From: an uncultured virus (IMG/VR IMGVR_UViG_3300043774_001054)
Taxonomy: Duplodnaviria; Heunggongvirae; Uroviricota; Caudoviricetes
Length of the DNA stretch: 20,000 nucleotides
IMG/VR virus record: IMGVR_UViG_3300043774_001054
Span: 53,458 to 73,457 of that record
Strand: one strand, 5' to 3'
Part shown: piece after piece, positions 7,237 through 15,634 of the stretch
Layout of the letters: each line of letters starts with the position of its first letter
How positions within the stretch are numbered: position 1 is the first letter of the stretch
The notes under the pieces: generated by a model
Databases searched by the model: none
What the model saw: the letters and a program-made list of their open reading frames with translations, nothing else
Told to the model about the DNA's origin: nothing
Made by a program: the position numbers and the translations under genes

Positions 7237-7602
7237 TTACTTCTTGGAGTTTTCAATGTATTGAATGATGTTTTGCTTACCAATAATGTTCATCGAATGA
7301 ACCTCATAGTCGGGAAACTCAACGCCTTTTTCATGGCAGTAGTTCACTAGCCATTTAGCGCAGTCGTATCCAGTTTTCTCCTTATAGGAGTCATACGTCG
7401 GTTCGGTACCAGCAATGCCAGCGGCATAGTGTTCCTGTCCCAGGTCGTGATCAAAGGTCACGAATGAAGGTATACCAAGCCGTTCAATACATTCAACGAA
7501 TTTTTTATAGCTTCGCACCGTGGTATAAGGTCCCAGGGGTAATTGTACCCATTTTACCTGAGAGGGAAGGCGTTCGTCATCCAGAAATAGTTTGTAGCTC
7601 AT
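7237..7602 (-). CDS. Cyclic-phosphate-processing receiver-domain-like protein (RNA-repair associated family)
   Basis: LFLDDERLP, FVTFDHDLG, KTGYDCAKWL and VHSMNIIG motifs; start reassigned to ATG 7602. Confidence 0.8.
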   Translation of the reverse strand: MSYKLFLDDERLPSQVKWVQLPLGPYTTVRSYKKFVECIERLGIPSFVTFDHDLGQEHYAAGIAGTEPTYDSYKEKTGYDCAKWLVNYCHEKGVEFPDYEVHSMNIIGKQNIIQYIENSKK

Positions 7603-7606
7603 ATAG

Positions 7607-8158
7607 TTATGTTGTGTGTGGACCGTGATGGTCAACGGGCTTATAAGTTTTAGTCTTCATCTTATCCCGAAGCTGCTCCATAGATACTGGAAAGTAGTTC
7701 CAGCAATCTACACCAACATCACAGCTAAGAGTGGTAGGATCATCCGGAAGAGTGCCGTGCGAGTGTCCGTAAAGTTGCCAGTGCCCTTTGTGGCTGCCGT
7801 TCCATACCTTCATGGCATAGTGACAGAGAATGATTTCTTGTTTGTCAACTGTTACTTCTCGAAGATGTGGTATATCAAACTCCCATCCAGAATCTAGGTA
7901 GCTCCGCATGAGCCGTTTATCATGGTTGCCCAAGCAGAATTGAATTTTACCATTTAAACGCCGGAGATAGGGAGCGGCAGGACCGCCACCCACCGCAAAA
8001 TCACCGAGATGGTACACGGTATCTTCTGGACGAACAATAGCGTTCCAATTATGAATGAGTGTATTGTCCATCTCTTCTACCGAGGCAAAAGGACGTTTAC
8101 AGTATTTAATGATGTTTGCGTGCCCAAAATGGGTATCGCTTGTGAAGAATGTGTTCAT
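7607..8158 (-). CDS. Calcineurin-like metallophosphoesterase
   Basis: Metal-binding motifs DTHFGH, HLGDF, GNHD, CHY and GHSH. Confidence 0.93.
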   Translation of the reverse strand: MNTFFTSDTHFGHANIIKYCKRPFASVEEMDNTLIHNWNAIVRPEDTVYHLGDFAVGGGPAAPYLRRLNGKIQFCLGNHDKRLMRSYLDSGWEFDIPHLREVTVDKQEIILCHYAMKVWNGSHKGHWQLYGHSHGTLPDDPTTLSCDVGVDCWNYFPVSMEQLRDKMKTKTYKPVDHHGPHTT

Positions 8159-13833: not shown

Positions 13834-14499
13834 TTAGAACTTGAGGGTAACAGCCGAACGGAGACCAACCGTGGTCTTATCGAGATTGCCGTCCTGGAGG
13901 ACAACAAAACCGGCTGATAGGACCTTCCATGAAGCATCAAGTGAACCGCCGTAGTAGGCATTGGTGTATTTGATTTCCTTGACGGTGCGTGGGAAAACAT
14001 CATTTGCGTCGGTATAACCAGCAAATACTGTACCCGTGAGACCGAAGTCGCCAGCAAACTTGGCAGTTTGTGCAAACTTAGCTTCAACATTGGAGAGGTC
14101 GGATTCAACATCATAGCGTCCGGTAACGGTCACTGGACCCTTACCAACGGTAACGAATGGACGGAAGTGTCCATTTGAATCCTTACCCGGACGATTCTTC
14201 ATTGCATACTCGGTACCAACTTTTACGTCGGCAAGAGTTGAGACGAATGTATAACCGCCAAGGAATTTGAACTGGTAGAAATCGACAGAATCAATACCAT
14301 TGAGATGGGTATCTGCCGATGCTCCGACATTGAAACTGCCGATTGAGTAGTCGACTGCGGTAACAGCCGAACCCTTCGTATCAGTGACTTTGCCGAAGTC
14401 AATTCCTTTTTCTTGGTATCCAACCGAAACCGTGCCGCCAGCAAAGGCAGACGCAACAGCAAGAACCGAGATGAGTGTGAGTTTGATTAGTTTATTCAT
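13834..14499 (-). CDS. Outer-membrane beta-barrel protein (porin-like)
   Basis: Sec signal ending in AFA, alternating amphipathic strands, terminal Phe (TLKF). Confidence 0.85.
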   Translation of the reverse strand: MNKLIKLTLISVLAVASAFAGGTVSVGYQEKGIDFGKVTDTKGSAVTAVDYSIGSFNVGASADTHLNGIDSVDFYQFKFLGGYTFVSTLADVKVGTEYAMKNRPGKDSNGHFRPFVTVGKGPVTVTGRYDVESDLSNVEAKFAQTAKFAGDFGLTGTVFAGYTDANDVFPRTVKEIKYTNAYYGGSLDASWKVLSAGFVVLQDGNLDKTTVGLRSAVTLKF

Positions 14500-14506
14500 A
14501 CGTTAT

Positions 14507-14514
14507 TATTTATA
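14507..14514 (-). promoter_or_regulatory. T4-type late promoter
   Basis: TATAAATA 7 nt upstream of the beta-barrel ATG. Confidence 0.8.
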
Positions 14515-14528
14515 TTTCCTATCCAAAG

Positions 14529-14623
14529 TGGACCGCGTGTAGGGCTCGAACCTACATCTTCAGTTTCGTTCAGGGTGTACTTGACCTGTAACACTGAAAT
14601 CTTATCCTTTAGACGAACGCGGT
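14529..14623 (-). ncRNA. tRNA-like RNA (Arg-like body) with about 21 extra nt in the anticodon loop
   Basis: Acceptor ACCGCGT/ACGCGGT, D arm with GGATA, T arm GTAGG-TTCGAGC-CCTAC; 28-nt anticodon loop ending ACG-AA. Confidence 0.8.
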
Positions 14624-14642
14624 TTATGCTTTACTTTGCCGT

Positions 14643-14761
14643 ATTCCATAGCCTCATATTCGATCAATAATAGATCACATCCGATTCGCTACTTAGCCGA
14701 TGGACTTTATTTAAAGACCGCGGATACGCATAATATCCGCGTGAGGTTCAGTACCTGGAAT
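14643..14761 (-). ncRNA. Putative structured ncRNA (about 120 nt)
   Basis: Closing ATTCCA/TGGAAT, hairpin CGCGGATA/TATCCGCG and smaller hairpins; follows a promoter and boxA-like motif; no ORF. Confidence 0.55.
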
Positions 14762-14795
14762 CTTTTGAGAATGACTGTAAAAGAACTATGATAGA

Positions 14796-14824
14796 ACTAT
14801 ATCTCAACGCCGTCAAAAGTAAAC
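14796..14824 (-). promoter_or_regulatory. Early promoter driving non-coding RNAs
   Basis: GTTTAC-N17-TATAGT, followed by GTTCTTT. Confidence 0.75.
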
Positions 14825-15101: not shown

Positions 15102-15178
15102 TGGTGCTCATTGTAGGACTCGAACCTACGACCCTCTCGGTGTAAGCGAGATGCTCTAACCAACTGAGCTAAACGAGC
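15102..15178 (-). tRNA. tRNA-Val(TAC)
   Basis: Canonical cloverleaf, CCA. Confidence 0.95.
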
Positions 15179-15263: not shown

Positions 15264-15634
15264 TGGTGGACCTGAGGGGAGTTGAACCCCTGTGTTCAAT
15301 AATTTTTCCGATAATTTTCTACAAGCTTAGTACTACTTAACTGTCGCCATGATACCGTAATACTGTATCATGATTGTTTTGGTGAGGATACACATCTTGT
15401 ACACCACTTCAAGACGGTCTCGCTTTTTATGACGAGTGTAACACTTAGCGAGAATCTGTGTTATCTACTCGATCACAGTTTTTAGGCTGCGAGTGGCATT
15501 TCTTCGGCGAAACCGAAGAAATTGCTGAGGGCTTTATTAATGCCGTTTAACTTTTTACCAGTTTTTAAAAGGTATCCGGAGAACCTTGCTTGCTTACTAT
15601 AAGTCTATTACTGAGTCGAATCCAGTACAGGCCC
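15264..15634 (-). ncRNA. ssrA: tmRNA
   Basis: 5' GGGCCTGTACTGGATTCGAC; 3' T arm plus CAGGTCCACCA with G3:U; 371 nt; internal frame ending LAA-stop. Confidence 0.96.

What the first reader, a model, noticed from the sequence alone, without database searches (positions are those of the whole stretch)
14529..14623. tRNA with an intact body and a 21-nt structured insertion in the anticodon loop (mini-intron or armoured tRNA)
Seen: acceptor, D and T arms pair well, but TCAGT/ACTGA encloses 28 nt (GTTACAGGTCAAGTACACCCTGAACGAA) that can fold as GTT/AAC plus CAGG/CCTG. Removing 21 nt gives GT-ACG-AA (Arg, matching the GGATA D loop; no other Arg-ACG tRNA is in the window) or GT-TAC-AA (Val). An alternative register gives a 4-bp TGTT/AACG helix next to a 3-nt bulge, loosely like a bulge-helix-loop. 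CCA follows the acceptor stem with no discriminator. Known: bacterial tRNA introns are large group I introns, while short protein-spliced introns are archaeal or eukaryotic. Inference: a spliced short intron or a non-decoding mimic.
Basis: partly seen in the sequence, partly recalled or inferred. Interest (0 to 1): 0.78.

Follow-up and report, generated by a model that had tools for sequence, protein, structure and literature searches.

The report
Phage tRNA look-alike with swappable hairpin
A lake-water T4-like phage carries, among its ordinary tRNA genes, a conserved tRNA-shaped gene whose anticodon is buried in an extra 20-21-base hairpin that differs between phage strains; it probably imitates a tRNA rather than decoding, though removal of the hairpin by an unknown splicing route is not excluded.

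Summary
Confirmed. On the minus strand at 14531-14623 lies a complete tRNA cloverleaf (Rfam tRNA 41.6 bits once 24 nt are skipped). Its 5-bp anticodon stem encloses 28 nt instead of 7. The gene is under selection. Eleven records from lake viromes and metagenomes carry it in four alleles, always with the insertion. Six stem pairs change on both sides: three in the tRNA body and three in the insert hairpin. The genome is an uncultured T4-like phage with 19 ordinary tRNAs and a tmRNA in the window.

The insert has an invariant base and a fixed-length tip. The tip is conserved between distant lineages but replaced between close ones.

Against decoding:
- It alone lacks discriminator+CCA (19 of 19 and 23 of 23 ordinary tRNAs have it).
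- A normal tRNA-Val(UAC) sits about 480 nt away.
- No splicing endonuclease or RNA ligase was found.
- The one RNA-library contig across it keeps the insert.

Best reading (0.45): a non-decoding tRNA mimic displaying a swappable hairpin. Spliced mini-intron: 0.25. This scan met the same family before on other DNA (e1-5837571) and read it likewise.

The parts
14531..14623 (-). tRNA-like gene, 93 nt (allele A): full cloverleaf with a 28-nt anticodon 'loop'
   Evidence: Rfam RF00005 41.6 bits; MFE cloverleaf; own model R1 120.3 bits
14617..14623 (-). Acceptor stem, 5' strand (ACCGCGU); pairs with 14532-14538
   Evidence: 7 of 7 pairs in all 4 alleles; pairs 2:71 and 4:69 change on both sides in allele B
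14599..14614 (-). D arm (stem GUCU/AGAU, loop AAAGGAUA), invariant in all alleles
14593..14597 (-). Anticodon stem, 5' strand UCAGU; pairs with ACUGA at 14560-14564
   Evidence: 5 of 5 pairs, invariant in 4 alleles
14588..14592 (-). GUUAC: positions 32-36 (U33, U34-A35-C36 = Val anticodon), invariant. Paired into the insert (G32:C, U33:A, U34:A, A35 bulged, C36:G)
14567..14587 (-). The 21 nt whose removal leaves GUUAC+AA (20 nt in alleles C and D). Holds the variable apical hairpin and the semi-conserved 3' strand G-R-A-C-R
   Evidence: Only excision giving one 7-nt loop in all 4 alleles; apical pairs 37:52, 38:51 and 39:50 change on both sides
14565..14566 (-). AA: last two bases of the 3-nt bulge (GAA here, AAA in alleles C and D); would be positions 37-38 after excision
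14539..14555 (-). T arm (GUAGG UUCGAGC CCUAC)
   Evidence: 5 of 5 pairs; pair 72:82 of the alignment changes G-C to A-U in allele B
14529..14531 (-). CCA directly after the acceptor stem with no discriminator (UCA in allele B)
   Evidence: 19 of 19 ordinary tRNAs in the window and 23 of 23 in G001 have discriminator+CCA
14788..14816 (-). Sigma-70-like promoter match (TTGACG-17-TATCAT, 10 of 12), about 165 nt upstream of the gene
   Evidence: Consensus scan only; 5 sites found against 1.8 expected
15102..15178 (-). Ordinary tRNA-Val(UAC) with A73+CCA, about 480 nt upstream
13834..14499 (-). Downstream 221-aa gene with no family match; used as synteny anchor and neutral yardstick

Best explanation
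This is a functional, non-decoding tRNA look-alike made by the phage. It descends from a tRNA gene and keeps everything that makes the L-shape: acceptor, D and T arms, U8, A14, G18-G19 and a UUCGA T-loop. So the cell's tRNA-handling proteins should still recognise and process it. Where the anticodon loop should be, the arm continues as an irregular helix. There is a 3-nt bulge, then a 3-bp helix that ties up G32-U33-U34, then a bulged A35, then a 3-5-bp apical helix starting at C36, capped by a 7-11-nt loop. The anticodon therefore cannot be presented, and the 3' end lacks a proper discriminator+CCA. The base of the extension is invariant. The tip has a fixed length but comes in interchangeable versions. 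I infer that the RNA works by binding a tRNA-recognising protein as a decoy or competitor. The likeliest partner is a host tRNA-targeting defence nuclease or a tRNA enzyme, with the tip as the part that sets or evades specificity. Shown here: the structure, selection on it, allele turnover, the 3'-end anomaly and the absence of splicing enzymes. Inferred: that it is not charged, does not decode, and acts as a decoy.
For: (1) Selection on the tRNA body. Alleles A and B differ at 7 of 65 body positions, and 6 of those form 3 compensatory pairs. 4-fold sites in the neighbouring gene differ by 0.39-0.45. (2) The anticodon bases are paired in the MFE fold of all 4 alleles, and the insert helix covaries, with 3 pairs changed on both sides. 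(3) The insertion is present in 11 of 11 records. Scans that could have found an insertion-free form found none. (4) The 3' end is unique: 19 of 19 ordinary tRNAs in the window and 23 of 23 in G001 encode discriminator+CCA, while this gene has stem+CCA or stem+UCA. (5) An ordinary tRNA-Val(UAC) lies about 480 nt away in both lineages. (6) The tip is sequence-constrained where it persists. The A-versus-B core is 14 of 16 identical and the loop 8 of 8, against 0.39 neutral divergence (P about 0.02 each). Between closer genomes it is replaced: A-D 7 of 16, C-D 5 of 15, P 0.003 and 6e-5. An inert spacer would not be expected to show this. (7) No EndA, RtcB or Rnl2-type ligase in G000 or G001. (8) The one metatranscriptome contig that crosses the gene keeps the insertion. 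(9) Phage tRNAs acting against tRNA-cleaving defences are published (PMC10264068, passages searched; PMC11464382 and PMC11555353, listings and abstract openings only).
Against: No binding partner is known and none was tested. The conserved/variable boundary falls exactly where an intron model predicts: GUUAC and AA never change, and the two changes in the base region are both on the would-be intron side. A mimic model does not predict this. No complementary target for the tip was found. G001 is 84% complete and many of its ORFs have no annotation, so missing enzymes prove little. Some phage tRNAs are known, from recall of T4 biology, to get CCA from the host enzyme, so the 3'-end anomaly does not exclude charging. 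There are only four alleles, so all statistics are small-sample.
Confidence: 0.45

Rival explanations
1. A short protein-spliced intron. Twenty or 21 nt are cut out between positions 36 and 37 and the halves are rejoined by unknown host or phage enzymes. The product would be a second tRNA-Val(UAC) with the loop G-U-UAC-A-A.
For: Of the 8 possible single-block excisions, only this one gives the same 7-nt loop in all 4 alleles. That loop has U33 and a purine at 37. ARAGORN calls the in-silico excised form tRNA-Val(tac). The 7 would-be exon bases are invariant, while 2 of 5 neighbouring would-be intron bases vary. Insert length is held at 20-21 nt and its hairpin is kept by compensatory change. 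G32 pairs with the base 2-3 nt before the 3' cut beside a 3-nt bulge, recalling the anticodon-intron pairing of eukaryal pre-tRNAs (recalled, not tested). Insertions in phage tRNA anticodon loops are published for Lak megaphages at 23-141 nt (PMC6784885, passages and Table S6) and were noted in this scan (e1-6086262).
Against: No EndA, RtcB or Rnl2 in G000 or G001. No bulge-helix-bulge: one 3-nt bulge and one 1-nt bulge. The excision site is 36/37, not the canonical 37/38; at 37/38, position 37 would be A, G or C depending on the allele. There is no discriminator+CCA, unlike 19 of 19 and 23 of 23 ordinary tRNAs. It would be redundant with the adjacent ordinary tRNA-Val(UAC). The body is unlike that Val tRNA (0.62 identity, background mean 0.59) and has G32 and no A73. 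The loop sequence is constrained between alleles A and B. No insertion-free allele occurs among 11 records. No spliced contig was seen, though that test is weak.
Confidence: 0.25
2. A cis-acting processing signal. The tRNA-shaped fold is kept only so that RNase P and 3' tRNA-processing nucleases cut the long transcript here, setting the ends or stability of neighbouring mRNAs. On this reading the anticodon arm is free to change.
For: It needs only the acceptor, T and D arms, which are exactly the parts under the strongest constraint. It needs no proper 3' CCA and no anticodon. A metatranscriptome contig runs from the gene through the downstream gene.
Against: Nineteen true tRNAs on the same strand already offer such cut sites. 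It does not explain the invariant base of the insert, the fixed insert length, or the sequence constraint on the tip between alleles A and B. The downstream gene has its own TATAAATA motif (seen by eye; consensus recalled).
Confidence: 0.1
3. A dead tRNA gene: a mobile or accidental hairpin insertion destroyed it and it is now decaying.
For: Default tRNA finders reject it. Rfam fails on allele B. The 3' end is damaged. Other windows of this scan found hairpin elements that split tRNA genes (listing).
Against: Body substitutions between A and B are 7 of 65, against about 25 expected at the neutral rate, and 6 of the 7 are compensatory. The body is 65 of 65 identical in A, C and D despite 0.15-0.22 neutral divergence. 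The hairpin motif is not a repeated element: 34 of 37 pattern hits in the viral collection are unrelated sequence with no tRNA over them.
Confidence: 0.05

Closest known systems
'Enigmatic' tRNA introns of Lak megaphages (Devoto et al. 2019, PMC6784885)
   Same: Insertions inside the anticodon loop of phage-encoded tRNA genes. They were found because the genes were too long for bacterial tRNA finders, and no mechanism is known.
   Different: Lak insertions are 23-141 nt, mostly 79-141 (Table S6), and are reported as typically identical across cohorts. Here the insert is 20-21 nt, the tip differs between close strains, and the 3' end is abnormal. No sequence relation was tested.
Archaeal/eukaryal protein-spliced tRNA introns (bulge-helix-bulge; EndA/Sen plus RtcB or Trl1)
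   Same: A short insertion next to the anticodon. The anticodon pairs with the insert, and a 3-nt bulge lies at the would-be 3' cut beside the anticodon stem.
   Different: There is only one 3-nt bulge. The allele-consistent site is 36/37, not 37/38. No EndA or RtcB was found in the phage records. The host is bacterial: the phage is T4-like and carries a tmRNA.
   Same: A non-coding RNA with a tRNA-like module, sometimes phage-encoded, thought to act through protein binding rather than decoding.
   Different: No Rfam match other than tRNA at E up to 10. From recall, YrlA has its ends in the Ro-binding stem and a closed acceptor-like arm. Here the ends are at a normal acceptor stem.
Phage tRNAs that neutralise tRNA-cleaving defences (PMC10264068; PMC11464382; PMC11555353)
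   Same: tRNA genes in phage clusters whose anticodon-loop differences matter in conflicts with host nucleases. This is the framework for the decoy idea.
   Different: Those are decoding tRNAs with point changes in a 7-nt loop. PMC10264068 holds none of the words insertion, intron, decoy or enlarged. Here the loop is replaced by a helix.
Stable RNA species 1 and 2 of the phage T4 tRNA region (recalled, not looked up)
   Same: Small stable RNAs of unknown function encoded beside the tRNA genes of a T4-type phage.
   Different: No sequence or structure comparison was made here. This is a lead only.

Membership tests
Canonical tRNA (Rfam RF00005) | Cloverleaf with acceptor, D, anticodon and T arms, scoring above the gathering threshold | tested here: met
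   41.6 bits against 29 for allele A. Allele B gave no hit.
Canonical tRNA (Rfam RF00005) | 7-nt anticodon loop presenting a free anticodon | tested here: not met
   27-28 nt between the stem halves in 11 of 11 records; bases 32-34 and 36 are paired.
Canonical tRNA (Rfam RF00005) | Discriminator base followed by CCA, encoded in every other tRNA of this phage | tested here: not met
   Stem+CCA in alleles A, C and D; stem+UCA in allele B. 19 of 19 and 23 of 23 ordinary tRNAs have N73+CCA.
Protein-spliced BHB tRNA intron | Two 3-nt bulges separated by a 4-bp helix | tested here: not met
   One 3-nt bulge and one 1-nt bulge (A35) in all 4 allele folds.
Protein-spliced BHB tRNA intron | A splicing endonuclease (EndA/Sen, PF01974) is available | tested here: not met
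   0 of 2 phage records in a six-frame search; the control rang in 4 archaea. The host genome is unknown.
Protein-spliced BHB tRNA intron | An RNA ligase (RtcB or Rnl type) is available | tested here: inconclusive
   RtcB and PF09414: 0 of 2 records. The PF09511 control rang nowhere. A host could supply RtcB.
Protein-spliced BHB tRNA intron | The spliced product exists | not testable with these tools
   Only assembled metatranscriptome contigs were available. One crosses the gene with the insertion retained, and no junction was reported.
Group I intron in tRNA (the known bacterial type) | A self-splicing ribozyme core of hundreds of nucleotides | tested here: not met
   The insert is 20-21 nt. 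No Rfam match other than tRNA.
YrlA / Y RNA | Match to RF02553 and a Ro-binding stem holding the RNA ends | tested here: not met
   No hit at E up to 10 in 14400-14800. The ends lie at an acceptor stem.
Mobile hairpin element splitting tRNA genes | The same element recurs at other sites or genomes | tested here: not met
   34 of 37 hits to the hairpin pattern are unrelated sequence with no tRNA over them. No other tRNA of G001 carries an insertion.

The most novel reading that the evidence does not exclude
A bacterial virus carries a tRNA-Val(UAC) gene interrupted by a 20-21-nt hairpin mini-intron at position 36/37. The hairpin would be cut out and the halves rejoined by proteins. That would be a tRNA splicing route not known in bacteria or their phages. 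The hairpin tip would be free to be swapped between strains, and the masked precursor might protect the anticodon loop from host nucleases until it matures.
Probability: 0.22. Interest if true: 0.9.

Novelty: new variant of a known kind. Interest (0 to 1): 0.62.

Why it matters
Phage tRNA clusters are now seen as weapons against tRNA-cleaving host defences. This gene suggests a further kind of weapon: an RNA that keeps the whole tRNA shape but replaces the anticodon loop with a fixed-length, strain-specific hairpin. If it is a decoy, it points to an unknown tRNA-binding defence or enzyme in freshwater bacteria, and to a natural 'tRNA scaffold' that displays a small hairpin. If it is spliced, it would be the first protein-type tRNA splicing in the bacterial world. 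In practice, standard tRNA finders miss it, so similar genes are probably under-counted in phage genomes.

Tried and rejected
- **ARAGORN intron mode.** It reads Cys(aca) with a 13-nt intron at 31/32. Rejected: that fold needs a second CUGAA, which allele C lacks.
- **Arg-ACG reading.** Rejected. The body shares A1:U72 and a GGAU-type D loop with G001's tRNA-Arg(ACG), and R1 scores tRNA-Arg(UCU) at 44.8 bits, but overall identity is modest, so ancestry stays open.
- **Recent paralog.** Identity to the 19 window tRNAs is 0.49-0.67 against a background mean of 0.59.
- **More distant homologs.** R1 over 50 related IMG/VR records gave 1 of 50, G001 only, and most records are fragments. blastn against 50,697 phage records gave no match. 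A looser viral scan gave the same 3 contigs. R1 over 151 genomes of G051's family gave 1 of 151, G051 itself.
- **RNA evidence.** Four metatranscriptome runs were laid, contigs only. No junction across the insert was reported, and one contig (X16 record 9, 867 nt) crosses it unspliced. Contigs cannot show a mature tRNA, and DNA carry-over is possible.
- **Antisense target for the tip.** No co-varying complementary site within about 1 kb of any allele or in G000 or G001.
- **Larger RNA including the leader.** Only weak consensus structure, -8.7 kcal/mol.
- **Link to the cREC_REC/metallophosphoesterase pair.** Rejected: G001 has the RNA but no homolog of either protein.
- **CRISPR-repeat mimicry by the 27-28-nt segment.** Considered but not tested, because the one genome-collection scan went to the family pattern.
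- **Literature.** Searches found no description of this RNA.

Full report
**What is there.** Read on the minus strand, 14623 down to 14531 is a 93-nt cloverleaf. It has:
- a 7-bp acceptor stem;
- U8;
- a 4-bp D stem with the loop AAAGGAUA;
- the 5-bp anticodon stem UCAGU/ACUGA;
- a 4-nt variable region;
- a 5-bp T stem with the loop UUCGAGC.

The anticodon stem encloses 28 nt instead of 7. Default ARAGORN and Rfam over the whole window list 19 tRNAs and a tmRNA, all on the minus strand, but not this gene. Searched in a 401-nt stretch, Rfam's tRNA model matches it end to end at 41.6 bits (gathering score 29, E 1.3e-7), skipping 24 nt in the loop. Nothing else matches at E up to 10. The own-genome search also reports it.

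**Genome.** The window is the last 20 kb of a 73,457-bp viral record estimated 45% complete, and the tRNA cluster runs off its end. PHROGs on 88 ORFs shows a T4-type myovirus: gp32-like SSB, helicase loader, late-transcription factor, DNA end protector and T4-type baseplate. The nearest cultured phages are only about 55-57% identical in the SSB: Phage C48C1, the Methylophilales 'Melnitz' phages and cyanomyophages. Sequencing runs holding the locus are lake or freshwater metagenomes.

**Relatives.** Eleven records hold the gene:
- the window itself;
- three IMG/VR contigs, found through the neighbouring protein and through DNA patterns;
- six metagenome contigs, found with a pattern that left 5-35 nt free between the anticodon-stem halves;
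- one contig binned into a lake MAG labelled Flavobacteriia.

That last copy is the only one among 151 genomes searched in that family, so it is most likely a mis-binned phage fragment.

All 11 records have the insertion. They fall into four alleles:

| Allele | Records | Loop length |
|---|---|---|
| A | window, L001, L002, L135 | 28 nt |
| B | L003, L132, L134, L136, L149 | 28 nt |
| C | L133 | 27 nt |
| D | L137 | 27 nt |

Searches for more distant homologs failed:
- my covariance model over 50 related viral records hit only G001, though most of those records are fragments;
- blastn against 50,697 phage records found nothing;
- a looser viral pattern returned the same three contigs.

**Selection on the body.** Alleles A and B differ at 9 positions. 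Six of them form three compensatory pairs: acceptor 2:71 C-G to U-A, acceptor 4:69 G-C to A-U, and a T-stem G-C to A-U. One is the base after the acceptor stem, and two face each other in the insert. In the 65 nt outside the loop, A and B differ at 7 positions, while 4-fold sites of the neighbouring gene differ by 0.39-0.45. A, C and D are 65 of 65 identical at 0.15-0.22 neutral divergence. Over the four alleles, 97.4% of cells pair, against 25-40% when partners are slid. Six pairs change on both sides, and 0 of 500 shuffles reach that. With four sequences the power is small, but this is not a decaying pseudogene.

**The insert.** All four alleles fold to the same architecture. After the anticodon stem there is a 3-nt bulge on the 3' side: GAA in A and B, AAA in C and D. 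Then comes the helix G32:C, U33:A, U34:A (U·G in C), then a bulged A35, then an apical helix starting at C36:G, and a loop of 7-11 nt. The base is invariant in sequence. The apical helix reads CAGG/CCUG, CAGGA/UCCUG, CGG/CCG and CCAAA/UUUGG in the four alleles, and three of its pairs change on both sides.

Rates in the 15-16-nt core are very uneven:

| Pair | Neutral (4-fold) divergence | Core identity | Probability |
|---|---|---|---|
| A-B | 0.39-0.45 | 14 of 16; loop 8 of 8 | about 0.02 or less, and 0.018 |
| B (L003)-B (L149) | 0.17 | 16 of 16 | not computed |
| A-C | 0.148 | 11 of 16 | 0.075 |
| A-D | 0.224 | 7 of 16 | 0.003 |
| C-D | 0.186 | 5 of 15 | 6e-5 |

So the tip is held where it persists and is swapped wholesale elsewhere, at nearly constant length. 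The binomial figures treat sites as independent and rest on short gapped alignments.

**Which anticodon.** I listed all eight ways of removing one block to leave 7 nt. Only GUUAC|AA gives the same loop in all four alleles: U33, anticodon UAC (Val), A37, A38. ARAGORN calls that in-silico form tRNA-Val(tac). ARAGORN's own intron call, Cys-aca with a 13-nt intron, needs a second CUGAA that allele C lacks. At the canonical 37/38 site, position 37 would be A, G or C depending on the allele.

**For and against splicing.**

In favour:
- The conserved/variable boundary coincides exactly with a 7-nt loop.
- The two changes in the base region both lie on the would-be intron side.
- The length is constant.
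- There is a 3-nt bulge beside the anticodon stem.

Against:
- There is no second 3-nt bulge.
- Six-frame searches of G000 and G001 find no tRNA-splicing endonuclease, RtcB or Rnl2-type ligase. The T4 Rnl1 search had no working control.
- Pfam on 106 G001 ORFs shows no RNA ligase, Pnkp or Tpt1. It shows only a DNA-ligase-type enzyme, a NIF/HAD phosphatase and assorted nucleases: HNH, SegE-like GIY-YIG, PD-(D/E)XK and SNase.
- The cREC_REC/metallophosphoesterase pair in my window has no homolog in G001, which does carry the RNA.
- G001 is 84% complete and the host is unknown, so absence is weak evidence.

The RNA data were assembled metatranscriptome contigs only. One 867-nt contig (93% identical) crosses the whole gene with the insert, and no junction was reported. 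This cannot show a mature tRNA, and DNA carry-over is possible.

**Against decoding.**
- Every ordinary tRNA encodes discriminator+CCA: 19 of 19 in the window and 23 of 23 in G001. This gene alone has CCA directly after the stem (alleles A, C, D) or UCA (allele B).
- A normal tRNA-Val(UAC) with A73 lies about 480 nt upstream in both lineages.
- The body is no closer to that Val tRNA than to others: 0.62 identity, range 0.49-0.67, background mean 0.59.
- The would-be position 32 is G.

**Verdict.** The gene is real, conserved and shaped like a tRNA, with its anticodon locked into a helix. My best reading, at 0.45, is a non-decoding tRNA mimic whose invariant base and swappable tip serve protein recognition. 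The most plausible role is as a decoy in the conflict over tRNA-cleaving defences, a framework that is published for ordinary phage tRNAs (PMC10264068, where I searched passages and found no mention of insertions or decoys; PMC11464382 and PMC11555353, listings and abstract openings only).

Alternatives:
- a spliced mini-intron, 0.25;
- a cis processing signal, 0.10;
- a dead gene, 0.05;
- the remainder is unassigned.

**What is known.** Lak megaphage tRNA 'introns' are the only published phage case that my searches found (PMC6784885, passages and Table S6). They are 23-141 nt with no mechanism shown. Four literature searches gave no description of this RNA. Two earlier notes of this scan bear on it. 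Note e1-5837571 is on a look-alike of this gene in another genome and reads it as a mimic. Note e1-6086262 is on 21-nt hairpins in huge-phage tRNAs and reads them as mini-introns.

Noticed in passing
window 15264-15634 (-): The phage encodes a tmRNA (Rfam 105.6 bits; tag GINKALSNFFGFAEEMPLAA) inside the tRNA cluster. It is conserved in L001-L003 and, with two tag changes, in L149.
   Followed up: partly
window 7240-7635 (-) and 7610-8158 (-): Adjacent genes for a cyclic-phosphate-processing receiver domain (cREC_REC, 69 bits) and a calcineurin-like phosphoesterase, which are RNA-repair-type parts. Neither has a homolog in the related phage G001.
   Followed up: partly
G000 outside the window: L050:12093-17385 (-): A T4-like phage carrying a run of CHASE2-nucleotide cyclase, FecR-domain, CsgG-like and CsgF-like genes (curli-secretion-type channel parts). 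G001 has ORFs of matching size and order.
   Followed up: no
L004 and L005, 220-286 (+): A Pistol ribozyme match (54.5 bits, gathering score 34.5) about 165 nt upstream of a tRNA-Met in a more distant relative.
   Followed up: no
window 14574-14577 (-) and the same alignment columns 44-47 in the other alleles: Every allele's apical loop holds a self-complementary tetranucleotide in register: GUAC in A, B and C, GAUC in D. G44 and C47 are the only invariant loop columns. This might allow loop-loop pairing or be a recognition site. It is weakly significant and post hoc.
   Followed up: partly
G001:C1:47650-47661: A second same-strand copy of a 12-mer from allele B's hairpin lies inside the cyclase gene. 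It has no counterpart for allele A in G000 and is probably chance.
   Followed up: no
window 14507-14514 (-): TATAAATA, the T4 late-promoter consensus as I recall it, sits just upstream of the 221-aa gene that follows the tRNA-like gene.
   Followed up: no
L003:2320-3010 and G001:C1:63016-63108: Rfam's tRNA model finds allele A but not allele B of the same gene, and larger search spaces lose even allele A. Genes of this kind are easily missed by standard annotation.
   Followed up: yes
G001 70459-71169 (-) and 76823-77239 (-): An HNH endonuclease gene lies just beyond the end of the tRNA cluster, and a SegE-like GIY-YIG endonuclease gene lies a few kb further on. Free-standing homing-type nucleases near tRNA genes are also known in T4 (recalled).
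   Followed up: no
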